Source: a virus
Lineage: Duplodnaviria; Heunggongvirae; Uroviricota; Caudoviricetes
Reading direction: 5' to 3' (one strand)
DNA length: 38,250 nucleotides
IMG/VR virus record: IMGVR_UViG_2687453297_000004
Shown here piece after piece: positions 1-38,250 of the stretch; position 1 is the stretch's first letter, and each line of letters opens with the position of its first letter. The notes under the pieces were generated by a model that had not been told where the DNA came from, ran no database searches, and was given only the letters and a program-made list of their open reading frames with translations. A program made the translations under genes and the position numbers.

Positions 1-390
1 TTACTCTTTTTTCTCCGTATCTACATCGGGTTCATCAGCAAATAGCTTGCCCTGCATCCGATCCAGTTCTTCTTTTCTTACCCGCTTAACCACGCTGTAG
101 ACCCACTGAAGCGAAACACCAAATTTGCGGGCCAGTTCATGGTGGTTACGTCCGTTAAACTCCCTGAAGATTTCCCGGTCGCGCTGACTGACCTTCCATA
201 CCATGCCCATCGGGAAATAAACGTTTTGCCCGCCCCAGACCTGCATCATGCGGTTCGCGACGGCCTGACCAATCTGGTCGGCAATTGCGGGCTCAATATC
301 AATAATCTCGCGAACGGTCTCAGAGGTATGCTGTGCCAGTTCCACCAGGAGTTCCGGCCCTTTACTTCGAAACTGATTCAGGTCGCTCAT
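1..390 (-). CDS. mor: Mor/C-family transcriptional activator (middle operon regulator-like)
   Basis: 129-aa ORF; C-terminal pattern QNVYFPMG...RDREIFREFNGRN..ELARKFGVS..WVYSVVKRVRK matches the conserved HTH region of Mu Mor/C as I recall it; last gene of the leftward early operon, overlapping the upstream GemA-like gene. Confidence 0.75.
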   Translation of the reverse strand: MSDLNQFRSKGPELLVELAQHTSETVREIIDIEPAIADQIGQAVANRMMQVWGGQNVYFPMGMVWKVSQRDREIFREFNGRNHHELARKFGVSLQWVYSVVKRVRKEELDRMQGKLFADEPDVDTEKKE

Positions 391-853
391 GTTTTACTCC
401 CGCAGCTCTGCGCTGCCACTTCTTCAGTTTCTCAATAACACTGCTTGCCTGTTCAGTATTGAGCCAGCGCAGGGCGCTGATGCCCGTTTCCCGCTTGATC
501 CACCGCGCTAATGCATTTTCTGAACGGTCACGAACAATGCCGGCAGCAGCCATTTCAAGCCATAGCGCACGGATTTTCCTGGACTGCGGATGGTTATCCA
601 GCGGTAAACCGGAGCTGGCTTTTCTGGCAGGCTTAACGCGAAAGCCTTTCCTTTTCATGGATTCCAGCACGCAGTTTAGTTGTGTGGTATCCATTCCTTT
701 GGTTGAGGCTTTACCGGTCAGCCCCTGTAACATCTGGCGGTAGCTGTCTTCATCCATACCCAGTTCATTACGGGCAATATGAATGAGCTGGATAAGACGT
801 TGTTTAGTCATCATCGTTGCTCCTTCTGCCTGCATCACCGATATAATCGACAT
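362..853 (-). CDS. GemA-like early regulatory protein
   Basis: 163-aa ORF immediately upstream of mor in the early operon, the position GemA occupies in Mu; family assignment from remembered similarity only. Confidence 0.5.
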   Translation of the reverse strand: MSIISVMQAEGATMMTKQRLIQLIHIARNELGMDEDSYRQMLQGLTGKASTKGMDTTQLNCVLESMKRKGFRVKPARKASSGLPLDNHPQSRKIRALWLEMAAAGIVRDRSENALARWIKRETGISALRWLNTEQASSVIEKLKKWQRRAAGVKHERPESVSK

Positions 854-1019
854 ATAAAGGAAGTGCCACAGGCCAGCACAGGAACATCACCGACCAGCTA
901 ATCCAGTAACCGGCACCACTGTAACGTGAATAAAACCCTGAACGGCGGTGCAGTTCAGCAGTACACCAACCGACAAAACAATACCAGAACAGGGCACATA
1001 CAACAGATTCAGCCGTCAT
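804..1019 (-). CDS. Small hydrophobic (membrane) protein, unknown function
   Basis: About 72 aa from the internal ATG at 1017-1019; hydrophobic and aromatic-rich (CALFWYCFVGWC, WISWSVMFLCWPVALPLY); the longer 123-aa version would overlap the upstream ORF extensively. Confidence 0.35.
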   Translation of the reverse strand: MTAESVVCALFWYCFVGWCTAELHRRSGFYSRYSGAGYWISWSVMFLCWPVALPLYVDYIGDAGRRSNDDD

Positions 1020-1239
1020 TCTGAATATCCCCCCAACTGATATGAATATTACGGGCAGCAATGACAGGGTCTTTATTCCACCATGCACCTGACATGTATT
1101 TTTCAACCTGTTCGCGTCCGGCAATAACACCAATTGTGATCCCCGGCCTGACGTTCTTAAAAAAGGCGCGGGCAAAAAGGTATCTGGCAGATATTCGGCA
1201 GGCTTTTAATTTCCGGCTGTTACCTGATAACGTAATCAT
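1009..1239 (-). CDS. Hypothetical early protein
   Basis: 76-aa ORF whose start overlaps the stop of the upstream gene (1236..1919) in a compact operon arrangement. Confidence 0.35.
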   Translation of the reverse strand: MITLSGNSRKLKACRISARYLFARAFFKNVRPGITIGVIAGREQVEKYMSGAWWNKDPVIAARNIHISWGDIQNDG

Positions 1240-1919
1240 CTGGCCTCCAGTTTCTGCTGTTCCCGCCCACTGACCGGTCGGTGCAGTCTGACGTTCTGCC
1301 CTTCTCGAAACCCCGCATAGCGCGAGGCGTCGCCATTGCGACTTCTTCCCGGTTTACGCGCCCTGGTGGTTTGCGTCTGCGGGTATTTATGTTCCAGCCA
1401 CTGCTGCATCAGTTCACGTTCGTCATCGGTCAAGGCGAAGGACTGTATTTCACTGATAACGGCCAGCACCCAGCCTTCAGCAAACTGGTCTCCACGGCTG
1501 GTGCGGGTGGCGGTTTTTATTCTTTTGTTCTGTGCACTGATATACTGCTGACGCGCCTTTTTCAGCTGACGGGCCAGCACTTCCCAGGTGTACGCGGCCA
1601 GTGCGGCCCGTTCCCGGTTGCCGTAGAACCCCACACCCGGATATGTGCCGGGGTGAATGATGGAGTTAACACCAAATGCCTCGCGGATGATGTTCATCAG
1701 GCCCAGCATGTAGCGCGGCGGACGGAGGCTGCCTGTCGGCCAGTAGTGACTGATGGTTTCATCAATATCACTCATGGCGATGTCGGAATGTGTGATGCCG
1801 TGAACATCCATCAGTTTACGGGCGCGGCGCAGTGCCAGAGCGGCCTCGTGAGGGTTGCCGGATGCGGCCAGCGCCAGCAACTTTTTCAGTTTCTCAATGT
1901 GTTTATCCTGGTCTGTCAT
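1236..1919 (-). CDS. Early protein with DUF2786-like N-terminal motif
   Basis: 227 aa; N-terminus IEKLKKLLALAASGNPHEAALALRRARKLMDVHGIT resembles the DUF2786 signature found in Mu-like early regions; start overlaps the upstream stop. Confidence 0.5.
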   Translation of the reverse strand: MTDQDKHIEKLKKLLALAASGNPHEAALALRRARKLMDVHGITHSDIAMSDIDETISHYWPTGSLRPPRYMLGLMNIIREAFGVNSIIHPGTYPGVGFYGNRERAALAAYTWEVLARQLKKARQQYISAQNKRIKTATRTSRGDQFAEGWVLAVISEIQSFALTDDERELMQQWLEHKYPQTQTTRARKPGRSRNGDASRYAGFREGQNVRLHRPVSGREQQKLEAR

Positions 1920-2221
1920 TGTTCAGTATCTCCGGTGTACATGACGCCCAGCCGTGCGGCAAGGCGTTCCAGTTTTTTCTGTTTGTGGAAGTCAATCAGC
2001 CGGTCCATCCCCTGAAGGCGCAGCTGCTCTGTCATGATTTCCACGTCTGCCAGCTCTGCCGCGAGGTCACTTTCGCTGCCCTGTCCGTTCAGGTTGCGGG
2101 CGGCACTGGCCGCCAGTTCAGCGGCCTCTTCTGTCAGTTTCAGGGCCTGTGCATCCGGACCGAAACGCTGCAGGGCCAGACGGTAGAGGGCGGTGCGGGT
2201 GAGTTCGGTGTTCCGTGTCAT
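1916..2221 (-). CDS. Hypothetical early protein
   Basis: 101-aa ORF, co-oriented and tightly packed within the early operon. Confidence 0.4.
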   Translation of the reverse strand: MTRNTELTRTALYRLALQRFGPDAQALKLTEEAAELAASAARNLNGQGSESDLAAELADVEIMTEQLRLQGMDRLIDFHKQKKLERLAARLGVMYTGDTEQ

Positions 2222-2230
2222 GCCGCGCCC

Positions 2231-2503
2231 TCAGTGTTTCCGGTCGACGGTGATGTTCAGGCCGCCTTCTGCAGTGGTTTCCACCCGGTACGGCACCTCG
2301 TGCTCTGCCGTGTGGGTGAGTGTGTTCATCAGTACCTGCAGGGCAGCCGCCTTTCCGTTGGTTGCCACAATGGCCTGAGCGGCCATGCTGATTAACGCCG
2401 TCAGGACGTGCTTCACATCGGTGAGGTCGCGGCATTCACACTCGTTGACATAGTGTTCAACAAGGGTTCGGGTGCGCTGTCGTGCTTCCTGTGGGGTAAT
2501 CAT
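2231..2503 (-). CDS. Hypothetical early protein
   Basis: 90-aa ORF; start overlaps the stop of the upstream zinc-ribbon ORF. Confidence 0.4.
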   Translation of the reverse strand: MITPQEARQRTRTLVEHYVNECECRDLTDVKHVLTALISMAAQAIVATNGKAAALQVLMNTLTHTAEHEVPYRVETTAEGGLNITVDRKH

Positions 2504-2694
2504 TGCGCGTCCTCCCTGTCAGGGCGGGAGAATTCCATGACGGGCACGTCCGCCGAAAAATGCTGGCTGCAGTACGGACAGACCAGGGTGACGCGTACCG
2601 CAGGGATGTGGTATTTACCGGACATCACGGCGATGGCGCTGTGAAAACGCAGGGCTGTTATATCCCTCTCGCACTGAATACATTTAAATATCAT
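2500..2694 (-). CDS. Small zinc-ribbon protein
   Basis: 64 aa with two CxxC pairs (CIQCERD ... CPYCSQHF); strong SD (AGAGGAGAA) upstream of the ATG on the minus strand. Confidence 0.45.
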   Translation of the reverse strand: MIFKCIQCERDITALRFHSAIAVMSGKYHIPAVRVTLVCPYCSQHFSADVPVMEFSRPDREDAQ

Positions 2695-2791: not shown

Positions 2792-3322
2792 TTACTGCAC
2801 ATCCTGCTCAAAAGGAATTATTGAAAAATCCTCAATGTCGCTTTTAATGGAAATACCGGGAATATTTTTCACGGCCTCTTTTTCATTCAGGATAGCGTCT
2901 TTATTTATTTCCTCTTTTACACGAATAAAGCGCTCAAGCCCCAGACGTCTCAGTAATTCAATAACATTATCCGCCCCACGGATACTGACTGATGGCGGAC
3001 GGTTTCGCCACTGCACCTCGCCGGTGGTGAGGTTAGCGAACTTCACCTTCCCGTTGCCGGTCAGTTCATCACGGTGCGCCTCACACCATGTCTGGATACC
3101 GGACTGCAGTTCGGCCATGCGTTTTTTCAGGCTCTCGGTGAGCGGGGCATAACGTGCAGTGATGTCGCCAATGGTGTCATTCATTTCTGTTTCAGCCCTG
3201 ACCAGTTCACGTTGCGCGTCACCAAGCAGTCTGATTCCCTCAATGACCTCTTCGCGTGTCCCCGGCACCCAGAGTGCTGCTGCGGCTTTGATACGTTTTG
3301 CCCCTTTTGTACTTTTTGCCAT
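2792..3322 (-). CDS. gam: Gam-like host-nuclease inhibitor / DNA-end binding protein
   Basis: 176 aa, similar in size and early-region position to Mu Gam; strong SD (AGGAGGAG) before the ATG. Confidence 0.65.
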   Translation of the reverse strand: MAKSTKGAKRIKAAAALWVPGTREEVIEGIRLLGDAQRELVRAETEMNDTIGDITARYAPLTESLKKRMAELQSGIQTWCEAHRDELTGNGKVKFANLTTGEVQWRNRPPSVSIRGADNVIELLRRLGLERFIRVKEEINKDAILNEKEAVKNIPGISIKSDIEDFSIIPFEQDVQ

Positions 3323-3349: not shown

Positions 3350-3619
3350 TTACCACAAAGATTCCGGCCACACGACGCGACAGCCGTGCAGTTCGAAAAC
3401 GCCCTGACGGAAATGTCCCCTGTGGTCATGACCGGTATACAGATAACAGGCCTTTCCCTGCTCAAGCATGCGCATGCAATGCGCACTCCGGGAAACGCGG
3501 ATGACAGGTTTGTTACCCCTGATGGTGATGCTTTGTACATCCGTGTTCGTCGCCTTAAGCGCCATAATGGCTGACTGCACTTTGCTGATTTGCTGGTTGA
3601 TACCTGTGGTGGATTTCAT
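3350..3619 (-). CDS. Hypothetical early protein
   Basis: 89-aa ORF directly downstream of the MuB-like gene with a plausible SD. Confidence 0.4.
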   Translation of the reverse strand: MKSTTGINQQISKVQSAIMALKATNTDVQSITIRGNKPVIRVSRSAHCMRMLEQGKACYLYTGHDHRGHFRQGVFELHGCRVVWPESLW

Positions 3620-3621: not shown

Positions 3622-4827
3622 TTAAACCCCTTTGACAACGTCAGCGTTGACCTGTGGAACCCCGATTTCAGCGGCCAGATTCATGGCGGCTATTACCAGG
3701 TTACTGACGGCCAGCGGATACAGCAGGCTGACCATATTTTTACGATGACTTCCCGGATTGCTCAGGCGGGCACGTATGGCATCCACTGCGCTGGCGTCCA
3801 TAATGTCCGTCAGTTGTTTACCGGCCCGTTGCAGTTTGAACGTCAGAAACTCTTCAAGGTTATTGTCCAGAGGCAGAAGTTCGACCACCTCACAGCGCTG
3901 AACGACTTCACGGACTTCCATATTGCGTTCAGACAGTTTTGTCGCCAGTTCCGGCTGGCCAATCAGCACGATGGACAGCAGTTTTTTGAAACCGGACTCC
4001 AGCTCAAAAAAGCGTTTGAGGTGTTTCAGTGTCGGAATGGGCAGACTGTGGGCCTCCTCAATCACCAGAACGTGGCTGAACCCCGCCTGGCTGCTGTCTT
4101 TCAGGACGCGATGCAACTGGCGAAAGCGGGCGTCCTGACTGCGTCTGATGCTTTCCAGTGGTGCGATGGTACTGATAATGGCTTCGGCAATCGCTGCTGC
4201 CTTCAGGGTTTTCCCTTTCACATCGTTGTCTTCCATAGCGATGATGTATGGCTCGATAACAATTACCGGCGCATTCTCGCGGTTGATACGTTCAGTCAGG
4301 TCGCGGCGCAGCGTGGATTTACCCGCACCGGACTCACCGATGACGGCCATAAATCCACCATGACGGGCTGTCTGGTACAGCGCCTCACGCACATAGCGGA
4401 TGTCCGGGGTGGTGAACACATCATCAGAACCCTGCATGGCTTCGTCGGCGAACGGGTCACGGAAAAGACCAAACGCTTTTTTGGTTGCTGGAAATAACAC
4501 CTGTTTTTTGAGTAACATATTCTCTTCCTCACTGAGGCTCGTTTTATCTGTGGTACCCGCTGTACGGGGCGTGGCCGCGACCTGTACAGCATCAAAACTC
4601 TTCGTTGTATCAATCCCCTGACTTTCCAGCCAGGACGCAAGACGCCGGCGCACTTCTCCGGGGCGGGTGCGGGGCCACGCGTTATGATTCACAATCTGGG
4701 CCAGCGTGGCCTCAGAAACATCGACAGCTCTCGCCACCACCGCCTGTGAGATACGGGCCTCTTTCAGTTGCTGCTTCAGTACCAGCATGTTTTCCTCCTC
4801 AGTTGCCGTTAACAATGCTGATAACAC
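3622..4827 (-). CDS. MuB-like AAA+ transposition ATPase (target DNA activator)
   Basis: 401 aa; Walker A GESGAGKST; N-terminal HTH-like segment; lies immediately downstream of and overlapping the transposase gene, as B follows A in Mu. Confidence 0.75.
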   Translation of the reverse strand: MLSALLTATEEENMLVLKQQLKEARISQAVVARAVDVSEATLAQIVNHNAWPRTRPGEVRRRLASWLESQGIDTTKSFDAVQVAATPRTAGTTDKTSLSEEENMLLKKQVLFPATKKAFGLFRDPFADEAMQGSDDVFTTPDIRYVREALYQTARHGGFMAVIGESGAGKSTLRRDLTERINRENAPVIVIEPYIIAMEDNDVKGKTLKAAAIAEAIISTIAPLESIRRSQDARFRQLHRVLKDSSQAGFSHVLVIEEAHSLPIPTLKHLKRFFELESGFKKLLSIVLIGQPELATKLSERNMEVREVVQRCEVVELLPLDNNLEEFLTFKLQRAGKQLTDIMDASAVDAIRARLSNPGSHRKNMVSLLYPLAVSNLVIAAMNLAAEIGVPQVNADVVKGV

Positions 4828-6568
4828 TGCTGCGGGCCGGCGTGGTCAGCGTGGCCATGACTTCATCCAGTGCGGCTTCCGGTACGCCGTCCGGGTACTG
4901 TGCCGTTAACTGGCGGTAATGTTCCGGCGTCCAGGTAAGGCCGTCGGCGCTGAACTTATCGCGCAGGGCTTTCGCGGCCTCCACATGAGTCATGGGACGT
5001 TGTTCAGTGCGCGGCCCGCGTACGTCAGAGGCCTGACCGCGCTTCGGCATATAGGCCGGAAGTGTGGCGTCATCAATATGTTTATACGGGTCAAGCCGCC
5101 CGCCGAACGGCAGCGCCTTCGCCTTGCGTGCGGCAGCTGCATCTGTGGCGTTGTCTGTACCGGTGACCAGTGCTTCAGTTTCTTTTGCCGCCGTCTGCGC
5201 CGGTGTTTCCGGCAGGGCTTTGTAACTTTCGCCAAATACCGCCGCGCCTTCAGCAAAGCCAAACTCGTTCTTTCTGACCTCTTCGACCAGGAAGAACGTC
5301 TCGTGGCCGTCCTCACCGGTCAGAACCACCTGTGCCACATCGCTGCGCCACGGGTTACGGGTAATCATCAGTTTTTCACCGACCAGTACGCCCGGTACCG
5401 TTGATACGTCAAATTCAGTGCCCCGGAACGAGACACGAAGTTTTGGCGTGACTTTGCGGAGTTCTGGCGCCGCCACAGCCAGTTCACGACATACCTCAAC
5501 GGAAGGCGCTTTTTTCAGCTGCTCAGCAGTAATCTTCAGCCAGATATCCGTGCGGGTTTTACCGTGGCGGCTGTGAACAGCCGTGGCGTTAAAGTGGCTG
5601 CGCCATTTCGCGGCCAGCGCGTTGAGTTCTTCCAGACTGTGAACCGGCCGGAACTTCAGACCCGGCTCCAGCTTGCGTTCGATAATGTCTCGCGCCTTTT
5701 CCACCTGTCCGGTGGCGCGGGCGTTATGCGGCTTGTGCGCTATCAGGTCAATGCCCAGTGAGCGGCACATGTTTTTCGTCATACCCGCGGTGTTTGCCGA
5801 GCCGGGGTCGAGATAGAGTATTTTTGGCACGCCGTGCAGCACGTCTGCGCCGCCACGCTCCTGCATGGCGTTGATAAGCACAGAACACAGGTTCTCACCG
5901 GATTCCGCACCCGTCACATACTCAACGTAAATCCAGCCGCTGGCATGGTCGGTAATCTCATAACTCCACACGCGGTCACTGGCGATACGGGCAAGGTTAG
6001 CGGGCTTGTTCTTGTAGAATTTCGCGCTGTCCATCACCTGCAGCCCTTTGTGTCCATTGCTCAAGTAGTAAAGCGTGCAGAGCGAGGCATCAATCTGCCA
6101 GACATGATTGGGATGCAGACTGGCCACTTCGGTATGCGGCGCAGGGGCATCCAGTTGTTCCGGGTGCAGGCCATAGTTACGCAGGGCACGGCTGATGGCA
6201 TCTTCGGACAACGGGAAAAACTCACCGGTGGTTTCATCTGTTCTGCCTGCGGAGATAAAGCCGTTAGCCCGCAGGGTTTCCACTGCATCCGCGATGGAAT
6301 AGAGACGCTTACCGTTCTTGCGGGTGGCCTCACGCAGTGTGGCAGATATCAGCGCGGCTTCGTCGCGGGTCAGGGCGCTGCGCCCGGCATCGGCGCGTTT
6401 TTTGCGTTTATCAGTCACAGAGACCTCCTTCAGCCTGCGCAGCAGAGTGGCGCGGGACATGCCAAGTTCAGCACAGGCAGCGTCGTATATTGCACCGCGT
6501 TTACCATGCCCCGCGTCACGTGCCGCGCGGGCGACATAAACCAGTCGTTCAGTCAGGGCAGCATTCAT
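4799..6568 (-). CDS. DDE transposase (Mu/rve integrase-core type)
   Basis: 589 aa; N-terminal HTH region; candidate DDE residues in HVWQIDAS, LYLDPGS and GQVEKA; position between the Ner-like and MuB-like genes. Confidence 0.85.
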   Translation of the reverse strand: MNAALTERLVYVARAARDAGHGKRGAIYDAACAELGMSRATLLRRLKEVSVTDKRKKRADAGRSALTRDEAALISATLREATRKNGKRLYSIADAVETLRANGFISAGRTDETTGEFFPLSEDAISRALRNYGLHPEQLDAPAPHTEVASLHPNHVWQIDASLCTLYYLSNGHKGLQVMDSAKFYKNKPANLARIASDRVWSYEITDHASGWIYVEYVTGAESGENLCSVLINAMQERGGADVLHGVPKILYLDPGSANTAGMTKNMCRSLGIDLIAHKPHNARATGQVEKARDIIERKLEPGLKFRPVHSLEELNALAAKWRSHFNATAVHSRHGKTRTDIWLKITAEQLKKAPSVEVCRELAVAAPELRKVTPKLRVSFRGTEFDVSTVPGVLVGEKLMITRNPWRSDVAQVVLTGEDGHETFFLVEEVRKNEFGFAEGAAVFGESYKALPETPAQTAAKETEALVTGTDNATDAAAARKAKALPFGGRLDPYKHIDDATLPAYMPKRGQASDVRGPRTEQRPMTHVEAAKALRDKFSADGLTWTPEHYRQLTAQYPDGVPEAALDEVMATLTTPARSSVISIVNGN

Positions 6569-7493: not shown

Positions 7494-7802
7494 TTATAAA
7501 CGACTACCTGAAATGACACGTTGGTTGATTTCGTTAATACGATCCTGCGCTCGTGCCATCTCGTTACTGTGAGCCATGGCGATCTGCAGTAACTGGATGC
7601 CCGGTGCAAAACGTCCATTCTCCAGTTTCAGGGCCAGCCCTTCTTCAATGAGGGTGTTGAGTGCCCGATTAATGTTTGCTGGTGACTCGTGCAGTGCTGC
7701 CGCCAGTTCACCGTTGGAGATACCGTTCAGAGCGTGGCCACGTAACGCCTTAAGAACACGCAAAATACGGGTACCTGCGCTTGATGTATTTGGTTTATTC
7801 AT
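7494..7802 (-). CDS. Putative winged-helix DNA-binding protein
   Basis: 102 aa; HTH-like segment ISNGELAAALHESPANINRALNTLIEEGLA; second gene of the early operon. Confidence 0.45.
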   Translation of the reverse strand: MNKPNTSSAGTRILRVLKALRGHALNGISNGELAAALHESPANINRALNTLIEEGLALKLENGRFAPGIQLLQIAMAHSNEMARAQDRINEINQRVISGSRL

Positions 7803-10761: not shown

Positions 10762-10865
10762 AATCTGTAAGCCTTTTACAATTATTAAAAAATATGGCAG
10801 TCTGGTCAGGTCTCGCGAGACTGACTGAACCTTGGTCGGCTCACAGCGCATTCCTGTGGGGCGAT

Positions 10866-12755: not shown

Positions 12756-12757
12756 TC

Positions 12758-25693: not shown

Positions 25694-25699
25694 CATCAC

Positions 25700-31733: not shown

Positions 31734-32326
31734 CTGGTGTCACTCGTCAGGTCGGTACGGTCAGTGCCGTTGATGCCGACAGGGTTCAGGCCCGCGTTCG
31801 TCTGCCTGAATGCGATAACCTGCGCACAAACTGGCTTAACGTGCTGCAGCGCAATACCCAGGATAACAAAGATTACTGGCTCCCTGACGTGGGGGAGCAG
31901 GTTGAGGTGCTGCTCGATGCCAACGGCGAGGATGGTGTTATTCTGGGCGCGGTGTATTCAGACGTCGATAAACCACCGTTCAGTGACAAAAATATCCGGG
32001 GAACCCGGTTTGCTGATGGTGCAGAGTACAGCTACAACCGGAAGACGCACACTCTGACCATCCGGGGCGGCATTGAGCATATTGTCATTGAGTGTGGTGC
32101 TGATGTGGTATTGAAAACACAGAAAGCCACGATTGACGCACCGGAAACCGAACTTACCGGAGATCTGCGTGTCAGGGGTAAGCTGATTTACGAAGGAGGC
32201 ATGGCGGGTTCTGGTGGTGAAGGTGTTACCGCGACCATCCATGGCAATATCGAGATTAAAGGGAATGCCCATGCCACGGGCAGTATGTTGTCTGATGGCG
32301 AAAACTCCAGCCACCACTCCCACTGA
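31730..32326 (+). CDS. Baseplate spike protein (gpV-like)
   Basis: 198 aa; N-terminal region and position consistent with a P2 gpV-type baseplate spike. Confidence 0.7.
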   Translation: MTGVTRQVGTVSAVDADRVQARVRLPECDNLRTNWLNVLQRNTQDNKDYWLPDVGEQVEVLLDANGEDGVILGAVYSDVDKPPFSDKNIRGTRFADGAEYSYNRKTHTLTIRGGIEHIVIECGADVVLKTQKATIDAPETELTGDLRVRGKLIYEGGMAGSGGEGVTATIHGNIEIKGNAHATGSMLSDGENSSHHSH

Positions 32327-32380
32327 GCTTTTTAAACGCCTTTAATATCAGCGTTCCCGCACGGGGGCAATACTGCCCCC

Positions 32381-32728
32381 ATGAAAACAACCTCAGTATT
32401 CTGGCAACCAGCCCTGCAGGCTCCCGGCGAAATTGTCCGGGGGCTGGATGATATCCGGCAGGCGATTCAAATTATCCTGCGGACTCCCCGCGGCAGCGAC
32501 CCGCATCGCCCGGAGTTCGGCAGCAATCTGCATCTTTATATCGACTGGCCTGTAGACCGGGCCATTCCGCATGTGGTGCGCGAATCCGTCGATGCCATCC
32601 GGCGCTGGGAGCCCCGCTGCCAGCTTATGTCAGTTAAACCCGCCGTCGACGGCGAACATCTTACGCTCCGGGTGAGCTGGAAAGGCTCAGACGGACAGAC
32701 CCGGACTCAGGAGCTGCTATGGCGCTGA
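32381..32728 (+). CDS. Baseplate wedge protein (gpW / T4 gp25-like)
   Basis: 115 aa; pattern IRQAIQIILRTPRGSDPHRPEFGSNLH typical of the gpW/gp25 family. Confidence 0.7.
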   Translation: MKTTSVFWQPALQAPGEIVRGLDDIRQAIQIILRTPRGSDPHRPEFGSNLHLYIDWPVDRAIPHVVRESVDAIRRWEPRCQLMSVKPAVDGEHLTLRVSWKGSDGQTRTQELLWR

Positions 32729-33822
32729 CAGAACCCGATTTTATTGAACGCGATGCCGACAAAATTACGGCAGAAATGATTGCGAAGTATGAAGCGGATA
32801 CCGGCAAAACGCTGTACCCGGCACAGGCAGAACGTCTGCTGATTGATCTGTGGGCCTATCGCGAAATGCTGGTCAGGGTTGCGGTACAGGAGGCAGCAAA
32901 GCAGAATCTGGTCGCCTTTGCCCGTGAGCCGATGATTGATTACCTCGGTGAACTGGTTGGTGTATACCGTCTTGCCGCGCAGCCTGCCACCACCACGCTC
33001 CAGTTCTCCGTAGATGAGGCACTGGCCATTGATGTGCTGATCCCGGCAGGCACCCGCGTCAGCGCTTCCGACAGCGTTATTTTTGCCACCGATACAGATG
33101 TGGTACTGAAGGCCGGATTGCTGCTGGTCAATGTCACGTCCACCTGTACCGAACCCGGTACCGCTGGTAACGGCTGGCAACCTGCGCAGGTCAGTCAGTT
33201 ACTCGATGAGATTGATAACGTCGACCTGCTGGTGAGCAATCTGACGGCCAGTTCCGGCGGTTCAGAACAGGAAGACGATGACAGGCTCCGGGAGCGTATC
33301 AGGCTGGCCCCGGAGTCATTCACCAATGCCGGAAGCCGTGGCGCATACCGCTTTCATGCCATGCAGGCCCATCCCAACATTGTCGATGTTGCTGTGCTTT
33401 CCCCGGTTCCCGGGACCGTAGATCTGTATCCGCTGCTCAGTACCGGTCTGCCGGACGGCGGTGTTCTCACGCTGGTAGAGAGTTTCTGCTCTGATGAGAA
33501 AGTCAGGCCACTCACTGATACAGTGCGGGCTAAAACACCAGTGAAGGTGGATTACACCATTGAAGCCAGGATTACGATCTATCGTGATCAGGATGCCAGG
33601 TCTGTAAAAGATGCCGCTAACAGCGCCATACAGAACTGGGTGGCATCACGTGCCGCCACGCTGGGGCGCGATATTGTCCCCAGCCAGATTATCAGTGCAT
33701 TGTCCGTTTCCGGGGTGTACCAGGTTGAACTGGTGACACCGGCACTGCGGGTGGTGGCAGAAAACGAATGGGCAAACTGTACGGCAATCACTCTTAACAT
33801 GACTGGAGTGTCTGATGACTGA
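32719..33822 (+). CDS. Baseplate J-like protein
   Basis: 367 aa; follows the gpW-like gene with overlapping start. Confidence 0.7.
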   Translation: MALTEPDFIERDADKITAEMIAKYEADTGKTLYPAQAERLLIDLWAYREMLVRVAVQEAAKQNLVAFAREPMIDYLGELVGVYRLAAQPATTTLQFSVDEALAIDVLIPAGTRVSASDSVIFATDTDVVLKAGLLLVNVTSTCTEPGTAGNGWQPAQVSQLLDEIDNVDLLVSNLTASSGGSEQEDDDRLRERIRLAPESFTNAGSRGAYRFHAMQAHPNIVDVAVLSPVPGTVDLYPLLSTGLPDGGVLTLVESFCSDEKVRPLTDTVRAKTPVKVDYTIEARITIYRDQDARSVKDAANSAIQNWVASRAATLGRDIVPSQIISALSVSGVYQVELVTPALRVVAENEWANCTAITLNMTGVSDD

Positions 33823-34393
33823 GCCATTACAACTCCCGCCACCGCTTGAGGGTGATATCAGTCTCAGGACGCTGGGAAGACTGGCAGGACGGCTGGATAA
33901 CATCGACCTGAGCGTACTGATGGTCTTTCTCGTCGATATCGTCGACAGTTCCGCGCTGCCATGGCTGGGCGAGCAGTTCTCACTGTCTGGCGATGGCTGG
34001 GAGCTGGCGGAATCGGACGGTGTTCGCCGCATGCTTATAAAAGCAGCCATCGAACTGCACCGGTATAAAGGGACGCCGTGGTCAATCCGGGAAGTTATCC
34101 GCCGTTTTGGCTTTGGTGAAGTGGATCTGATTGAAGGCACAGGTCGTCTCAGTTACGACGGCAATCGCAGCTATAACGGACTGTTTGTTCATGGAGATGC
34201 AGCCGCCTGGGCAGTTTATCGCGTTATTCTGAAACAGCCCATTACTAACGATCAGGCCGCGATGCTGCGTCAGACGCTGGCTGCATTTGCACCGGCCCGC
34301 TGCCATCTGGCCAGCCTGGAGTATCAGTCTGTGGCCATTCGCTATAACAATACAGCCATCCATGATGGCAGTTATAACCACGGGAGCAGTTGA
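33815..34393 (+). CDS. Tail protein (P2 gpI-like baseplate component)
   Basis: 192 aa between the J-like and tail fiber genes. Confidence 0.6.
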   Translation: MTEPLQLPPPLEGDISLRTLGRLAGRLDNIDLSVLMVFLVDIVDSSALPWLGEQFSLSGDGWELAESDGVRRMLIKAAIELHRYKGTPWSIREVIRRFGFGEVDLIEGTGRLSYDGNRSYNGLFVHGDAAAWAVYRVILKQPITNDQAAMLRQTLAAFAPARCHLASLEYQSVAIRYNNTAIHDGSYNHGSS

Positions 34394-35991
34394 TTATGGG
34401 AAACCTGAATGAAACAGAAAAGTGGGAAGAAAATATCTATCAACTGGAGACATCAGATCCGGTTCTGGGTGGTGCAGACGGGATATCAAATCGAGCCCCC
34501 CGGCAACTGGCAAACAGGACGAAATGGCTGAAGAAGAAAACGGAGGAAGCCGCACAGTCACTGGCTGAACACGTACGTTCCCGTAACCACCCGGACGCGA
34601 CACTGACAGCTAAGGGGTTCACCCAACTGAGCAGTGCCACCAACAGCACCTCTGAAACGCTGGCCGCCACACCAAAAGCGGTCAAGGCTGCATACGACCT
34701 GGCAGCCGGCAAGGCGCCTGCCAGCCACACTCACCCGTGGAGTCAGATAACGGGAGTGCCTGCGGCTTCACTGACGGCAAAAGGCACCGTACAACTGAGC
34801 AGCGCCACGGACAGTCAATCAGAAACTGAGGCTGCCACGCCGAAGGCTGTGAAAATCGCGTATGATCTGGCCCGGGGAAAATACACAGCCCAGGATGCAA
34901 CAACGACCCGTAAAGGGATCGTACAACTGAGCAGTGCCATCAACAGCACGTCTGAAACGCTGGCCGCCACACCAAAAGCGGTCAAGGCTGCATACGACCT
35001 GGCAGCCGGCAAGGCGCCTGCCAGCCACACTCACCCGTGGAGTCAGATAACGGGAGTGCCTGCGGCTTCACTGACGGCAAAAGGCACCGTACAACTGAGC
35101 AGCGCCACGGACAGTCAATCAGAAACTGAGGCTGCCACGCCGAAGGCGGTCAAGGCTGCATACGACCTTGCAGCCGGCAAGGCGCCCGTCAGCCACACTC
35201 ACCCGTGGAGTCAGATAACGGGAGTGCCTGCTGCCTCGCTGACGGCAAAAGGCACCGTACAACTGAGCAGTGCCATCAACAGCACGTCTGAAATACTGGC
35301 CGCCACACCGAAAGCGGTCAAGGCTGCATACGATCTGGCAAACGGAAAACAACCGGCAGATGCCACGCTCACTGCTCTGGCAGGACTTGCCACTGCAGCA
35401 GATCGGTTGCCTTATTTTACCGGAGCAGACCGCGCAGCGCTGGCAACCCTTACAGCTATTGGTCGCGCTATTATCGCTAAGGGCAGTATAAAAGATGTCC
35501 TCAATTACCTTGGTTTGGGGGAAGGCTCGGCGCTGCCCGTTGGTGTACCTGTTCCGTGGCCCACTGCCACACCGCCAGCAGGCTGGTTACAGTGCAACGG
35601 AGCTACGTTCACCAAAGAACAATATCCTGTTCTGGCCAGAGTCTACCCGACCCTCCGTCTTCCCGATTTGCGCGGTGAGTTTATCCGTGGATGGGATGAC
35701 GGACGAAAGATTGACACCGGGCGTGCCCTGCTAAGCAGCCAGAGCGGAATGATTGAGAAACACCGTCATATTGTTGTTGCCAATGATGGTTACGACACAA
35801 AAGATGAATGGGAACTGGCTGCGATTTTCAAAAAAACATACACACAAGGACGAGGACTTGATGCCACAAATACAGGAGGGAGTCTGACCCCATCACCAAC
35901 ACTTCATTCGCGAGGGAGTATCGGTAATACTGGCGGGAGGGAAACCCGTCCACGAAATATTGCCTTTAACTACATTGTCAGGGCGGCCTAA
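34390..35991 (+). CDS. Tail fiber protein (constant N-terminal part, internal fiber repeats, currently fused to C-terminal cassette 1)
   Basis: 533 aa; five copies of the motif VQLSSAxxSxSETxAATPKAVKxAYDLA; C-terminus PRNIAFNYIVRAA; a conserved linker (VPVPWPTATPPAGWL...) recurs in two downstream cassettes. Confidence 0.8.
   Translation: MIMGNLNETEKWEENIYQLETSDPVLGGADGISNRAPRQLANRTKWLKKKTEEAAQSLAEHVRSRNHPDATLTAKGFTQLSSATNSTSETLAATPKAVKAAYDLAAGKAPASHTHPWSQITGVPAASLTAKGTVQLSSATDSQSETEAATPKAVKIAYDLARGKYTAQDATTTRKGIVQLSSAINSTSETLAATPKAVKAAYDLAAGKAPASHTHPWSQITGVPAASLTAKGTVQLSSATDSQSETEAATPKAVKAAYDLAAGKAPVSHTHPWSQITGVPAASLTAKGTVQLSSAINSTSEILAATPKAVKAAYDLANGKQPADATLTALAGLATAADRLPYFTGADRAALATLTAIGRAIIAKGSIKDVLNYLGLGEGSALPVGVPVPWPTATPPAGWLQCNGATFTKEQYPVLARVYPTLRLPDLRGEFIRGWDDGRKIDTGRALLSSQSGMIEKHRHIVVANDGYDTKDEWELAAIFKKTYTQGRGLDATNTGGSLTPSPTLHSRGSIGNTGGRETRPRNIAFNYIVRAA
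34621..35340 (+). repeat. Near-identical 300-bp tandem duplication inside the tail fiber gene
   Basis: 34621..34856 and 34921..35156 are almost identical by direct comparison; a partial third unit follows to about 35340. Confidence 0.85.
35498..35523 (+). other. Candidate serine-invertase crossover site (gix/hix-like), site a, inside the tail fiber gene
   Basis: ...ACC TT GGTTTGGGGGAA at the 5' boundary of a homology block of about 190 bp shared with the inverted cassette at 37410..37606. Confidence 0.45.
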
Positions 35992-36008
35992 ACGTTGGTT
36001 TAGGAGAA
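35983..36008 (+). other. Candidate crossover site b (direct orientation relative to site a)
   Basis: CCTAAACG TT GGTTTAGGAGAA with imperfect dyad CCTAAAC/GTTTAGG, overlapping the tail fiber stop, at the 5' edge of cassette 2. Confidence 0.4.
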
Positions 36009-36029
36009 GGCTCGGCGCTACCCGTTGGT

Positions 36030-36512
36030 GTGCCTGTTCCGTGGCCCACCGCCACACCGCCAGCAGGCTGGTTAAAGTGCGACGGGCGCGCCTTTACAAA
36101 AGAACAATATCCTGTTCTGGCCAGAGCCTACCCGACCCTCCGTCTTCCCGATTTACGCGGTGAGTTTATCCGTGGATGGGACGACGGGCGCAAAGTTGAT
36201 ACAGGACGTAAGTTGCTGTCCGCACAAGGGGCAACGCTGTTAAGAACAGCAATGCTGGATTATTATAACCAGGACACTACGGGAACCTCGGGGATAGTCG
36301 GCATGGGATTCAACAATGAAGATTCCATTACAGACCTTCGTGAGGGCAGCTTTAAAATGCCGGACGGGACAACATTCAGCGATCCTGTCGTGGCAATGTC
36401 AGACAATGGTATGCAGGCTACTATTCTGACCTCTATCAGAAGCGGGTATGCGAAGGGTATCACTGTCAGACCCCGTAGCATTGCACTTAATTACATTGTG
36501 AGGGCAGTTTAA
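36030..36512 (+). CDS. Alternative tail fiber C-terminal cassette 2 (no independent start; frame open from about 35970)
   Basis: Begins with the conserved linker VPVPWPTATPPAGWLKCDG...LRGEFIRGWDDGRK, then a divergent distal domain ending SIALNYIVRAV; its stop overlaps the start of the tail fiber assembly gene. Confidence 0.6.
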   Translation: MPVPWPTATPPAGWLKCDGRAFTKEQYPVLARAYPTLRLPDLRGEFIRGWDDGRKVDTGRKLLSAQGATLLRTAMLDYYNQDTTGTSGIVGMGFNNEDSITDLREGSFKMPDGTTFSDPVVAMSDNGMQATILTSIRSGYAKGITVRPRSIALNYIVRAV

Positions 36513-37126
36513 TGAGTAACACTGCAGTTCTGGATGAAAACGGTATCGCCACTGTAGCGGGCGATATCACTGTATATCACTATGACGAGGAAACCCGGGA
36601 ATACACCTCATCCTCTGTGGAGTATCTCGCCCTTGGGGTGGGTACTCCGGCACATTCGTGCGCCGATGCACCGCCGGAGGCAATTTCGGGTTACGTGGTT
36701 TGCCGGACTGCCACGCTGAACGGGTGGGAGCATGTGCCTGATCACCGCGGCGAGACGGTATACAGCACGGAGAACGGTAACCCCGTTCTGATTACCCAAC
36801 CGGGTGATTACCCGGCGGACACCACCACAAAACAGCCAGCCACGCCATGGGATACCTGGAACGGTGAGGCGTGGGTAACCGATACTGAACGGCAGCGAGC
36901 CGCAGAACTGGAGGTTGCCAGACAACAACGCCAGCAACGGGTGAAACAGGCGATGGCGTCCGTCGATCTTATCAACCTCAAACTGCGTGCTGGTCGCAGT
37001 CTGACACCAGAAGAAACGGCAAAACTGAACGCCGTGCTGGATTATATCGACGAGCTGAACGCACTGGATATCAGCACGGCACCTGAAATCAGCTGGCCGG
37101 AAGCGCCACTGGCACTTGCCAGTTGA
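36512..37126 (+). CDS. Tail fiber assembly protein (Tfa/U-like chaperone)
   Basis: 204 aa; TAATG coupling to cassette 2; sequence character typical of tail fiber assembly proteins. Confidence 0.7.
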   Translation: MSNTAVLDENGIATVAGDITVYHYDEETREYTSSSVEYLALGVGTPAHSCADAPPEAISGYVVCRTATLNGWEHVPDHRGETVYSTENGNPVLITQPGDYPADTTTKQPATPWDTWNGEAWVTDTERQRAAELEVARQQRQQRVKQAMASVDLINLKLRAGRSLTPEETAKLNAVLDYIDELNALDISTAPEISWPEAPLALAS

Positions 37127-37132
37127 ACGGTA

Positions 37133-37606
37133 TCACGCCGCCCTCACGATATAGTTAAACGCGATATTGCGGGGGCGGGTTATGTTAAAGAATGCTCCGT
37201 TTAATTCGGCTTTTGCGCGACTGTTTGTTCCACCCAGCACTGCGTACCACAAATAATCGCTACGGTAATTCCCCGCAAACACCTTATCGCCGCCATAGTC
37301 AATATTATTTCCGTTACTCATGTACGAGATATCAAGCGAAGAATCGTTATCGTCATGACCGCCGACCAGTGTACCTTTCTGCCATGAAAGCAACTTACGC
37401 CCCTCGTCAATCTTGCGCCCGTCGTCCCATCCACGGATAAACTCACCGCGTAAATCGGGAAGACGGAGGGTCGGGTAGACTCTGGCCAGAACAGGATATT
37501 GTTCTTTGGTGAACGTAGCTCCGTTGCACTGTAACCAGCCTGCTGGCGGTGTGGCGGTGGGCCACGGAACAGGTACACCAACGGGCAGCGCCGAGCCTTC
37601 CCCCAA
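37133..37606 (-). CDS. Alternative tail fiber C-terminal cassette 3 (inverted, no independent start)
   Basis: Minus-strand ORF encoding the same linker followed by a third distinct distal domain ending PRNIAFNYIVRAA; the first 190 bp or so are nearly identical to 35511..35700 in inverted orientation. Confidence 0.6.
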   Translation of the reverse strand: MGEGSALPVGVPVPWPTATPPAGWLQCNGATFTKEQYPVLARVYPTLRLPDLRGEFIRGWDDGRKIDEGRKLLSWQKGTLVGGHDDNDSSLDISYMSNGNNIDYGGDKVFAGNYRSDYLWYAVLGGTNSRAKAELNGAFFNITRPRNIAFNYIVRAA

Positions 37607-37623
37607 ACCAACGTTTATCTCTC
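37598..37623 (-). other. Candidate crossover site c (inverted relative to sites a and b)
   Basis: Reverse complement reads AGATAAACG TT GGTTTGGGGGAA, at the boundary of the inverted homology block and 55 bp upstream of the invertase gene. Confidence 0.45.
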
Positions 37624-37677
37624 AAATCCTCCCCACATTATCTCAGTACTTTAACCACTCAAAAGGGAGTATTTTTA

Positions 37678-38250
37678 ATGCTGATTGGCTACATACGTGT
37701 GTCAACAAATGACCAAAACACAGATTTGCAACGCAATGCATTAATGTGCGCAGGATGTGAACAGATTTTTGAGGACAAAATGAGCGGAACCAAGTCGGAA
37801 CGACCAGGCCTGAAACGCGCTTTAAAGTGCCTTAAAAGAGGGGATACATTGGTGGTCTGGAAGCTGGATCGGTTGGGTAGAAGAATGAAACACCTCATTG
37901 CTCTCACAGAAGAGCTACGCGCAAAAGGTGTCAATTTTCGCAGTCTGACGGATTCAATCGATACCAGCACTCCGATGGGAAGGTTCTTTTTTCATATGAT
38001 GGGTGCACTGGCAGAAATGGAGCGTGAACTGATAGTTGAGCGCACGCTGGCTGGACTGGCTGCTGCGCGAGCACAAGGAAGAGTTGGAGGACGTCGCCCG
38101 AAACTGACGAAGGAGCAGCATGAGCAGATCGCAAGATTGCTCCAGAAAGGGTATGACAGAAAGCGGCTGGCAATTATCTATGATATTGGACTGTCAACGA
38201 TCTACCGCTATCACCCTGTTGGGACTGTCATAACGCAACCTGAAATGTAA
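37678..38250 (+). CDS. gin: Serine recombinase, DNA invertase (Gin/Hin/Cin/Pin family)
   Basis: 190 aa; N-terminus MLIGYIRVSTNDQNTDLQ with catalytic-serine context; near-colinear with Mu Gin as I recall it; SD AAGGGAG upstream. Confidence 0.9.
   Translation: MLIGYIRVSTNDQNTDLQRNALMCAGCEQIFEDKMSGTKSERPGLKRALKCLKRGDTLVVWKLDRLGRRMKHLIALTEELRAKGVNFRSLTDSIDTSTPMGRFFFHMMGALAEMERELIVERTLAGLAAARAQGRVGGRRPKLTKEQHEQIARLLQKGYDRKRLAIIYDIGLSTIYRYHPVGTVITQPEM

What the first reader, a model, noticed from the sequence alone, without database searches (positions are those of the whole stretch)
1..38250. Mosaic transposable phage: Mu-type early region and head, P2-type tail, with the early operon inverted relative to Mu
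Early genes (ner-like through mor) run leftward and the late genes run rightward from a divergent control region, unlike Mu where both run rightward. The tail module is P2-like (X, D, V, W, J, I, H/Tfa). This resembles the organisation I recall for the BcepMu group of transposable phages, but I cannot confirm that here. The window starts exactly at the mor stop and ends at the gin stop, so the transposon ends and host junctions cannot be assessed.
Basis: partly seen in the sequence, partly recalled or inferred. Interest (0 to 1): 0.4.

Follow-up and report, generated by a model that had tools for sequence, protein, structure and literature searches.

The report
BcepMu-type transposable prophage in E. 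coli
This is an ordinary, already catalogued E. coli prophage: a relative of Burkholderia phage BcepMu that multiplies by transposition, has partly Mu-like head genes and a P2-like tail, and sits in about one in eight complete E. coli genomes.

Summary
Early genes (window 1-8023) run leftward and end at mor. Lysis, head and tail genes (12405-35991) run rightward. The window starts at the mor stop codon and ends at the gin stop codon.

The window is gene-for-gene collinear with Burkholderia phage BcepMu, at 31-76% amino-acid identity from mor to gpI. Its transposase is 69% identical to BcepMu gp09, and the adjacent ATPase is 59% identical to gp08. Neither resembles MuA or MuB. The terminase, portal, F, G and gp36 proteins are Mu-type. 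The tail is P2-type.

Gam (61%) and the Gin invertase (77%) match Mu and are absent from BcepMu.

Near-identical prophages supply the missing ends, 162 bp to the left and 78 bp to the right. They read 5'-TG...CA-3', and five independent insertion sites each carry a 6-bp target duplication, not Mu's 5 bp. No integrase is present.

The backbone occurs in 643 of 5426 complete E. coli genomes. GenBank phage PhiKM (97.6% identical) is already filed under Bcepmuvirus. The kind is therefore already known and interest is low.

One side lead: downstream of the repressor lies an unannotated RexAB-like two-gene cassette.

The parts
1..390 (-). mor: Mor/C-family late transcription activator, the last gene of the early operon and nearest the phage left end
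   Evidence: Pfam Mor E=1.3e-43. 54% aa identity to BcepMu gp01 and 31% to Mu Mor.
362..811 (-). gemA (Mu gp16 family)
   Evidence: Pfam GemA E=1.4e-40. 45% identity to BcepMu gp02 and 36% to Mu gp16.
804..2694 (-). Six small early genes: two hypotheticals, a DUF2786/DUF7168 protein, an NTP pyrophosphohydrolase-like protein and two PHROG families of unknown function
   Evidence: No BcepMu, Mu or P2 hit.
2792..3322 (-). gam: host-nuclease inhibitor, Mu-type
   Evidence: Pfam Phage_Mu_Gam E=1.9e-40. 61% identity to Mu Gam and no BcepMu hit. Found in only 12 of 80 family loci.
3350..3619 (-). HI_1482-family small protein
   Evidence: PGAP name. phrog_2041.
3622..4788 (-). AAA+ ATPase ('ExeA-like'), the inferred transposition/target-selection partner that plays the MuB role
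   Evidence: Pfam AAA_22 E=4e-20. 59% identity to BcepMu gp08 and no Mu hit. Lies directly downstream of the transposase in 71 of 80 family loci.
4799..6568 (-). DDE (rve) transposase of the BcepMu lineage
   Evidence: The only Pfam hit is rve; none of the MuA-specific domains appear. 69% identity to BcepMu gp09 and no Mu hit. Best NCBIfam hit is the IS481 family, below its cut-off. Plasmid relatives are IS481-type at about 25% identity.
6572..7483 (-). DUF3102 protein (BcepMu gp10 equivalent)
7494..8023 (-). Two small HTH regulators at the head of the early operon, in the Ner/Cro-like position
   Evidence: HTH_IclR for 7494-7802. A weak HTH_35 (Ner family) hit, E=0.007, plus PHROG repressor families for 7799-8023.
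8024..8111 (.). Divergent control region between the early operon and the repressor gene
   Evidence: AT-rich intergenic stretch read directly from the sequence. Operator and promoter roles are inferred from position.
8112..8528 (+). cI-type repressor
   Evidence: Pfam Phage_CI_repr E=1.2e-17.
8651..9941 (+). RexAB-like accessory cassette: a 297-aa RexA-fold protein (8651-9544) and an overlapping 145-aa protein with four predicted transmembrane helices (9504-9941)
9994..12274 (.). Accessory block: Dam-type N6-adenine methyltransferase (9994-10761, -) and three PHROG families of unknown function (10952-11167 -, 11166-11570 +, 11546-12274 -)
12405..14766 (+). Lysis cassette: holin, SLT transglycosylase and spanin, followed by two small conserved genes
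   Evidence: Pfam Holin_2-3 and SLT. 50-61% identity to BcepMu gp21-26.
14766..19662 (+). Mu-type packaging and head-completion genes: TerS (Mu gp27), TerL, portal, F and G
   Evidence: Pfam Phage_Mu_Gp27, Portal_Mu, Phage_Mu_F and Phage_tail_S. TerL is 49%, F 48%, portal 27% and G 29% identical to Mu; all are 44-67% identical to BcepMu.
19877..23471 (+). Head protease/scaffold, major capsid, DUF2190, the Mu gp36-like adaptor, Gp37 and a small protein
   Evidence: 44-53% identity to BcepMu gp32-38. No tblastn hit to Mu for the protease or capsid. Pfam Phage_Mu_Gp36 and Gp37.
23461..26126 (+). P2-type tail sheath (FI), tube (FII), a small ORF and the E-type tail assembly chaperone
   Evidence: Pfam Phage_sheath_1, Phage_tube and Phage_TAC_7. 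33% and 29% identity to P2 FI and FII; 76% and 67% to BcepMu.
26284..29495 (+). Tape measure gene, containing a 3 x 261-bp in-frame tandem repeat (28099-28894). In this copy it is split by a 1-bp deletion in a G run (28091-28095).
   Evidence: E8 and OZ040963 have six Gs where the window has five.
29495..34393 (+). P2-type tail/baseplate genes U, X, D, V, W, J and I
   Evidence: Pfam Phage_P2_GpU, Phage_tail_X, Phage_GPD, Phage_base_V, GPW_gp25, Baseplate_J and Tail_P2_I. 26-39% identity to P2 and 46-63% to BcepMu.
34396..37626 (.). Tail fibre and invertible host-range region. It holds the fibre (34396-35991, +), a silent tip cassette (36030-36512, +), Tfa (36512-37126, +), an inverted silent tip cassette (37133-37606, -), and three gix-like crossover sites at about 35500-35525, 35985-36010 and 37600-37626.
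   Evidence: Repeats and inverted repeats of 218-232 nt. AAACCAACGTTT core sites. Collar and Caudo_TAP domains. The 35989-37614 segment is found inverted in E8 and OZ040963.
37678..38250 (+). gin: serine DNA invertase
   Evidence: Pfam Resolvase plus HTH_7. 77% identity to Mu Gin and absent from BcepMu.
12337..12354 (+). Candidate late promoter element (TTAA-N5-CTTTAAWATC) upstream of the lysis genes. Sister copies lie at 25721-25738 and 32332-32349, with a variant near 19803-19820.
   Evidence: Three exact matches against 0.10 expected, all on the + strand in gaps before late gene blocks. Related elements sit at the equivalent BcepMu positions. The promoter function is inferred.

Best explanation
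The window is the coding body of a BcepMu-family transposable myovirus prophage of E. coli, trimmed of its terminal 162 bp on the left and 78 bp on the right.

Shown by the analysis:
- It is collinear with BcepMu.
- It carries a BcepMu-lineage DDE (rve) transposase and an adjacent AAA+ ATPase in place of MuA and MuB.
- Near-identical copies end 5'-TG...CA-3' and carry two conserved GAGATAAAT-like repeats at each end.
- Those copies sit at different chromosomal loci (one place in the survey is on a plasmid), and all five junction pairs examined have a 6-bp target duplication.

Inferred from homology and from what is published for BcepMu and Mu:
- A cI-type repressor holds the leftward early operon off.
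- On induction, the early operon expresses Ner/Cro-like regulators, the transposase, the ATPase, Gam, GemA and finally Mor.
- The genome replicates by replicative transposition.
- Mor switches on about four rightward late promoters that share a conserved motif.
- A Mu-type terminase and portal package integrated copies by headful, carrying host DNA at both ends.
- Virions have a P2-type contractile tail.
- Gin inversion shuffles three alternative fibre tips to change host range.

Relative to BcepMu, this enterobacterial lineage has gained Mu-like gam and gin modules and variable immunity and accessory genes.
For: - Collinearity and identity to BcepMu: 35 ORFs at 31-76% aa, with transposase 69% and ATPase 59%. 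The gene map of NC_005882 is.
- Transposase type: no MuA or MuB hit by tblastn, only an rve domain, and IS481 as the best NCBIfam family.
- Modules: Mu-type TerS, TerL, portal, F, G and gp36. P2-type sheath, tube, E, U, X, D, V, W, J and I.
- Ends and duplications: defined by break-points of alignment in other genomes and read at five independent sites, giving GCTGCA, TTCTTC, TCCTAA, TCGAGA and ACATAC.
- End architecture: shared with BcepMu and conserved in 22 relatives from many genera. The end motif is absent inside the window.
- No integrase is annotated in or beside the element.
- Family survey of the best 80 loci: mor lies downstream on the same strand in 66 of 67, and late genes lie upstream on the opposite strand in 65 of 67.
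- Prevalence: 643 of 5426 E. coli genomes, up to 3 places per genome, one place on a plasmid.
- Literature: the BcepMu-like organisation (PMC2771037); TG...CA termini as typical of BcepMu relatives (PMC2628397); most IS481-family elements make 6-bp duplications (PMC10045372).
- PhiKM is filed under Bcepmuvirus.
Against: - The window itself contains neither end, so its own junctions are inferred from 99.8%-identical copies.
- Replicative transposition, headful packaging with host flanks, Mor-dependent late promoters and transposase binding to the terminal repeats are inferred, not shown for this phage.
- The tape measure gene of this copy is frameshifted. This particular prophage may therefore be defective, or the sequence may contain a homopolymer error.
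- Nucleotide similarity to BcepMu is only about 20%, so same-genus membership is doubtful even though GenBank places PhiKM there.
Confidence: 0.93

Rival explanations
1. It is a true Mu-type phage (Muvirus) whose left arm has simply been inverted by a rearrangement.
For: Mor, GemA, Gam (61%), TerL (49%), F (48%) and Gin (77%) all match Mu proteins.
Against: There is no detectable MuA, MuB, c or Ner homologue at E<=1e-3, and no MuA-specific Pfam domain. Nucleotide similarity to Mu is 2.4%. The target duplication is 6 bp rather than 5 bp. The tail is P2-type and hits Mu only weakly at J. The inverted layout is shared by 65-66 of 67 relatives across two proteobacterial classes, so it is ancestral to the family and not a local rearrangement.
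Confidence: 0.02
2. It is a P2-like (Peduoviridae) prophage that integrates site-specifically, or two adjacent prophage remnants (Mu-like plus P2-like) read as one element.
For: Nine tail and baseplate genes are P2-type, and the fibre is 50% identical to P2 H over 258 aa.
Against: There is no integrase, cos site or P2 capsid/terminase gene set (Q, P, O, N, M, L). Nucleotide similarity to P2 is 1.0%. A single pair of TG...CA ends brackets the whole 38.5 kb, with matching 6-bp duplications at five different loci. The same composite exists as one unit in 606 E. coli genomes, in BcepMu, and in the deposited PhiKM and KP12 phage records.
Confidence: 0.01
3. This particular copy is a defective, non-inducible prophage remnant rather than a functional phage.
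For: The tape measure gene is split by a 1-bp deletion in a G run at 28091-28095, relative to two near-identical copies.
Against: Every other gene is full length compared with E8 and BcepMu. A single-base change in a homopolymer is a common sequencing error. Close relatives have been deposited as phage records (PhiKM, KP12).
Confidence: 0.25

Closest known systems
Burkholderia phage BcepMu (NC_005882; Bcepmuvirus) and its described prophage relatives
   Same: - The gene order and strand layout match from mor to gpI.
- It shares the transposase (69%) and ExeA-like ATPase (59%) lineages.
- It shares the Mu-like terminase and portal and the P2-like tail.
- It has TG...CA termini with two repeats per end in the same register.
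   Different: - Nucleotide similarity is only about 20%.
- This phage has Mu-type gam and a Gin invertase with an invertible fibre region, which BcepMu lacks.
- It lacks BcepMu's acyltransferase gp53, its SSB/HU-like genes and DUF3164.
- The immunity and accessory block is different.
Escherichia phage PhiKM (PQ738613), Klebsiella phage KP12 (OM835952), Escherichia phage Phi06_2974 B
   Same: PhiKM is 97.6-99% identical over most of the window. KP12 and Phi06_2974 B are about 86% identical. They belong to the same phage lineage.
   Different: PhiKM is a partial, permuted record that lacks the window's repressor and RexAB-like module and the gin region.
Escherichia phage Mu (NC_000929)
   Same: - Both are temperate myoviruses; Mu replicates by transposition, a lifestyle inferred here.
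- Homologous genes: Mor/C, GemA, Gam, TerS, TerL, portal, F, G and gp36.
- Both have Gin-mediated tail-fibre inversion.
- Both have TG...CA ends.
   Different: - The transposase and ATPase are unrelated at sequence level.
- The early operon is inverted, so mor rather than c/ner abuts the left end.
- The duplication is 6 bp rather than 5 bp.
- The tail is P2-type.
- There is a single Mor/C homologue and no com/mom.
- The invertible region has three tip cassettes with one Tfa, whereas Mu has two of each.
Enterobacteria phage P2 (NC_001895)
   Same: The tail genes FI, FII, E, T, U, X, D, V, W, J, I and H are homologous.
   Different: There is no P2 head, integrase, cos or replication genes. The tail genes form one contiguous block (FI...D then V...H) instead of P2's separated operons.
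Lambda RexAB and Pseudomonas putida RexABpp exclusion systems (for the 8651-9941 cassette only)
   Different: There is no sequence-level similarity to lambda RexA or RexB. PADLOC models do not recognise it. Its function is untested.

Membership tests
BcepMu-like transposable phages (family-level group) | Early/regulatory/transposition genes lie on one strand with the Mor-type activator at the left terminus, and lysis, head and tail genes lie on the other strand | tested here: met
   The layout is conserved in 65-66 of 67 relatives. Described in PMC2771037.
BcepMu-like transposable phages (family-level group) | An rve-type transposase of the Tn552/IS1604 (IS481-like) lineage, unrelated to MuA, with an adjacent ExeA-like AAA ATPase | tested here: met
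   69% and 59% identity to BcepMu gp09 and gp08. The only Pfam hits are rve and AAA_22. The best NCBIfam hit is IS481.
BcepMu-like transposable phages (family-level group) | Mu-related terminase and portal combined with a P2-related tail cassette | tested here: met
BcepMu-like transposable phages (family-level group) | 5'-TG...CA-3' termini and insertion at many sites | tested here: met
   Read in 99.8%-identical copies, not in the window itself. Five loci were examined, each with a 6-bp duplication. The end repeats align with BcepMu's.
BcepMu-like transposable phages (family-level group) | Virion DNA flanked by variable host sequence (replicative transposition and headful packaging) | not testable with these tools
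   This needs virion DNA sequencing. Multiple copies per genome and one place on a plasmid are consistent with it.
Genus Bcepmuvirus in the strict sense (genus-level nucleotide criterion of about 70% similarity, cited from my own knowledge of ICTV practice) | High genome-wide nucleotide similarity to BcepMu | tested here: not met
   blastn covers 29% of the window, equivalent to about 20% similarity. GenBank nonetheless lists PhiKM under Bcepmuvirus.
Muvirus (phage Mu proper) | MuA transposase and MuB ATPase, the c-ner-A-B left end in the same orientation as the late genes, and a 5-bp target duplication | tested here: not met
   No MuA or MuB hit, an inverted early operon and 6-bp duplications.
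Peduoviridae (P2-like phages) | Tyrosine integrase with attP, cos ends and the P2 head gene set (Q, P, O, N, M, L) | tested here: not met
   No tblastn hit to any of these P2 genes. No integrase is annotated. The junctions are of transposon type.
RexAB-type exclusion systems (8651-9941 cassette only) | A RexA-fold DNA-binding protein and a four-TM membrane partner, expressed from the prophage immunity region | tested here: met
   [not shown]
RexAB-type exclusion systems (8651-9941 cassette only) | Exclusion of superinfecting phage by membrane damage | not testable with these tools
   This needs experiments. No sequence similarity to lambda RexA or RexB and no PADLOC hit.

The most novel reading that the evidence does not exclude
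The low-GC two-gene cassette downstream of the repressor may be an unrecognised RexAB-type abortive-infection module. It comprises a 297-aa RexA-fold protein (8651-9544), whose relatives carry DUF6731, and a 145-aa four-TM protein (9504-9941). If so, DUF6731 proteins would be RexA homologues. They would travel as a mobile pair between unrelated temperate phages: here a transposable BcepMu-type phage, elsewhere a lambdoid prophage. Current defence-system models miss the cassette.
Probability: 0.5. Interest if true: 0.4.

Novelty: already known. Interest (0 to 1): 0.15.

Why it matters
As a finding it matters little. The BcepMu family and its inverted left arm, non-MuA transposase and P2-like tail were described in 2004, and this exact lineage is already in GenBank.

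Three practical points remain.
- It is a very common E. coli prophage, present in about 12% of complete genomes.
- It inserts by transposition and interrupts genes, for example ssuB.
- Its ends and 6-bp duplication, measured here, allow clean annotation of its boundaries.

The RexAB-like cassette would add a sequence-divergent branch to a classic phage-exclusion system, if it is confirmed.

Tried and rejected
- **Strong gyrase site:** The conserved palindrome in the G-I gap (about 19705-19745) lies where Mu has its strong gyrase site. It folds as a GC-stem hairpin followed by a U tract, so I read it as the terminator of the lysis/packaging operon. It is not evidence for a gyrase site.
- **PDB sequence searches:** The transposase and ATPase gave no meaningful hit, so no solved homologue could anchor the mechanism.
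- **Sequence comparisons to lambda Rex proteins:** hhalign of the DUF6731 alignment against lambda RexA gave probability 3%. BLASTP of the membrane partner against RexB gave E=0.4. Only fold and gene context support the Rex-like reading.
- **PADLOC:** It found no defence-system hit for the accessory genes other than methyltransferase models for the methyltransferase gene.
- **RNA genes:** Rfam and tRNA scans of the window were empty.
- **Tail chaperone frameshift:** I looked for a canonical -1 slippery heptamer for the E/E' tail chaperone. There was no convincing site, and the overlapping open frame is +1. This is unresolved.
- **Internal end motifs:** None were found in the window, so there is no evidence for an internal enhancer of that sequence.
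- **Literature:** The original BcepMu paper (PubMed 15184022) is not in the library. I could not check whether a 6-bp duplication was reported there. No paper mentions DUF6731.
- **Staphylococcus/Tn552 link:** A tblastn search of the plasmid collection did not list a Staphylococcus/Tn552 hit among the rows shown. The 'Tn552-like' label therefore rests on the literature, and my own result points to IS481-type.

Full report
**What is in the window.** The ORF map and the RefSeq annotation of a 99.8%-identical copy in E. coli E8 show an unbroken leftward block from 8023 down to 1. It runs in this order:
- two small HTH regulators;
- a DUF3102 protein;
- a 589-aa rve transposase;
- an AAA+ 'ExeA-family' ATPase;
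- a small HI_1482-family gene;
- Gam;
- six small genes;
- GemA;
- Mor.

A cI-type repressor gene (8112-8528) diverges from this block. Next comes a low-GC accessory block of mixed orientation (8529-12274; GC about 0.41-0.49 against 0.55-0.60 elsewhere). From 12405 onward there is an unbroken rightward block. It holds holin, SLT endolysin, spanin, TerS, TerL, portal, F, G, protease/scaffold, capsid, connector proteins, sheath, tube, chaperone, tape measure, U, X, D, V, W, J, I, fibre and Tfa. The Gin invertase ends it. Position 1 is the mor stop codon and 38250 is the gin stop codon. One refinement applies: the late genes start about 4 kb to the right of the divergent control region, not at it.

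**Comparison with Mu, BcepMu and P2.** I fetched all three genomes and ran every window protein against them.
- **BcepMu:** it matches 35 ORFs in the same order and orientation, at 31-76% amino-acid identity. The transposase is 69% identical to gp09 and the ATPase 59% to gp08.
- **Mu:** it matches only mor, gemA, gam (61%), TerL (49%), portal (27%), F (48%), G (29%), weakly J, a short stretch of the fibre, and gin (77%). There is no hit to MuA, MuB, c or Ner.
- **P2:** it matches sheath, tube, D, V, W, J, I and the fibre, at 26-50%.

Pfam agrees. The transposase shows only the rve core and none of the MuA-specific domains. The packaging and connector genes fall in the Mu families Gp27, Portal_Mu, Mu_F and Gp36. 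The tail genes fall in the P2 families: tube FII, TAC_7, GpU, tail X, GPD, V, gp25/W, Baseplate_J and Tail_P2_I. The capsid and protease/scaffold are recognisably BcepMu-like but show no detectable similarity to Mu, so 'Mu-type head' is only partly true. Genome-wide nucleotide similarity is about 20% to BcepMu, 2.4% to Mu, 1.0% to P2 and 85% to the partial PhiKM record.

**Ends and integration mode.** Junction queries against 5426 complete E. coli genomes break at fixed points 162 bp left of window position 1 and 78 bp right of 38250. I read both junctions at five independent loci:

| Strain | Insertion locus | 6-bp duplication |
|---|---|---|
| E8 | upstream of a CP4-44 DUF932 gene | GCTGCA |
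| FDAARGOS_1264 and U14A | ycaL/aroA | TTCTTC |
| p11A | ydiV/selO | TCCTAA |
| OZ040963 | ssuB | TCGAGA |
| 736 | between partial patatin-like phospholipase and ferredoxin reductase genes | ACATAC |

In every case the element starts 5'-TG and ends CA-3' and is bracketed by an identical 6-mer. The duplication is therefore 6 bp, not Mu's 5 bp. No integrase lies in or beside the element.

Each end carries two GAGATAAAT-like repeats about 22 bp apart, in the same register as at the BcepMu ends. The motif does not occur anywhere inside the window. Most IS481-family elements also make 6-bp duplications (PMC10045372). That fits the transposase's best, sub-threshold family match to IS481 and its roughly 25%-identical IS481-type relatives on plasmids.

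**Distribution.** The backbone is present in 643 of 5426 complete E. coli genomes. Coverage is at least 80% in 606 of them. There are up to three places per genome and one place on a plasmid. Phage-database relatives are Escherichia phage PhiKM (97.6-99% identical; GenBank taxonomy Bcepmuvirus), Klebsiella phage KP12 and Phi06_2974 B.

A scan of one genome per species found transposase relatives in 246 stretches across Gamma- and Betaproteobacteria. Among the best 80 loci:
- the ATPase lies directly downstream in 71;
- mor lies downstream on the same strand in 66 of the 67 loci with enough flank;
- late genes lie upstream on the opposite strand in 65 of 67;
- 22 loci from many genera show the same paired terminal repeats ending ...TCA next to unrelated host DNA;
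- Gam is present in only 12, so it is an addition of the enterobacterial branch.

**Literature.** Lavigne et al. 2009 (PMC2771037) describe BcepMu-like viruses with these features:
- replication by transposition;
- terminal CA dinucleotides;
- a transposase unrelated to MuA and distantly related to Tn552/IS1604;
- genes 1-13 on the bottom strand and 17-52 on the top strand;
- a lysis cassette after the lysogeny control region;
- a tail cassette related in sequence and order to P2;
- related prophages in other bacteria.

The KS10 paper (PMC2628397) states that TG...CA termini characterise BcepMu-related elements with an rve core. The original 2004 paper was not available.

**How it most likely works.**

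Shown:
- the gene content and layout;
- the transposon-type junctions, with 6-bp duplications at many sites;
- the conserved terminal repeats;
- inversion of the fibre segment between genomes.

Inferred from homology and from Mu and BcepMu biology:
- The cI-type repressor silences the leftward early operon.
- After induction, the transposase and the AAA+ ATPase (playing the MuB role) carry out replicative transposition from the TG...CA ends.
- Gam protects DNA ends.
- Mor, the last early gene and the only Mor/C homologue, activates the late promoters.
- Mu-type terminase packages integrated copies by headful.
- P2-type tails are assembled.

A motif, TTAA-N5-CTTTAAWATC, occurs three times against 0.10 expected. 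All three copies are on the plus strand, in the gaps before the lysis genes, the tail chaperone and gene W. A variant lies before the protease gene. Related elements sit at the equivalent BcepMu positions despite the different GC content. I read these as about four late promoters. Hairpin terminators precede two of them.

**Verdict.** Three corrections apply: a 6-bp rather than 5-bp duplication, a transposase and ATPase that are not MuA/MuB-type, and gam and gin as Mu-like additions. Membership of the BcepMu-like group passes every sequence-testable criterion. Strict same-genus status with BcepMu by nucleotide identity is not met. Mu and P2 membership both fail on defining features. The kind is already known and the lineage already deposited, so interest is low.

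**Side observations.**

2. **Tape measure gene.** It has a 3 x 261-bp tandem repeat and, in this copy, a 1-bp deletion in a G run that splits it.
3. **Invertible fibre region.** It has three gix-like sites and three tip cassettes but one Tfa. The window, E8 and OZ040963 represent different inversion or cassette states.
4. **Left-end variant.** Some copies carry two extra genes between mor and the left end.

Noticed in passing
[not shown]
   Followed up: yes
window 8030-10000: This repressor plus Rex-like immunity module is found in only 22 of 5426 complete E. coli genomes, whereas the phage backbone is in 643. PhiKM carries a different immunity region. The lineage therefore appears to have several interchangeable immunity modules.
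   Followed up: partly
window 26284-29495 (repeat 28099-28894; G run 28091-28095): The tape measure gene contains three in-frame 261-bp tandem copies, whereas E8 has two. In this copy it is split into two ORFs by a missing G in a homopolymer. That is either a real inactivating frameshift or a sequencing error.
   Followed up: yes
window 35500-37626: The invertible host-range region has three gix-like sites (two direct, one inverted), three alternative fibre-tip cassettes with Collar domains, and only one Tfa gene. Mu has two tips and two Tfa genes. The 35989-37614 segment is inverted in E8 and OZ040963. E8 lacks one cassette and OZ040963 has a different third tip.
   Followed up: partly
window 12337-12354, 25721-25738, 32332-32349 (variant about 19803-19820): The motif TTAA-N5-CTTTAAWATC recurs only on the + strand, in gaps ahead of late gene blocks (3 exact matches against 0.10 expected). 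Related elements sit at the equivalent BcepMu positions. These are candidate Mor-dependent late promoters.
   Followed up: partly
window 19705-19745; BcepMu L006 about 18735-18770: A conserved hairpin with the loop TTTATAAAGG lies in the G-I intergenic gap, the position of Mu's strong gyrase site. It folds as a stem plus U tract, so it is more simply a terminator.
   Followed up: partly
L010 1366-2472 and L012 565-1700 (outside the window, left of mor): Some copies (OZ040963, strain 736) carry two extra genes (633 bp and 162 bp) between mor and a variant left end (TGATCAGACATGAGATAAATG...). The window starts at the mor stop codon, so which variant it belongs to cannot be seen. Its 390-bp mor matches the short E8 type.
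   Followed up: partly
window 9994-10761 (-): An orphan Dam-type N6-adenine methyltransferase is conserved in PhiKM. It is possibly the functional counterpart of Mu's anti-restriction DNA modification. No com/mom genes are present, because the element ends 78 bp after gin.
   Followed up: no
window 25791-26208: The frame that overlaps the end of the tail chaperone gene is +1, not -1, and no canonical slippery heptamer was found. How the E/E'-type frameshift product is made here is unclear.
   Followed up: partly
L001 4514-4838 and 42620 onward; L009/L010: Insertions disrupt host or island genes. In E8 the phage sits inside the CP4-44-type island, upstream of a DUF932 gene. In OZ040963 it splits ssuB.
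   Followed up: no
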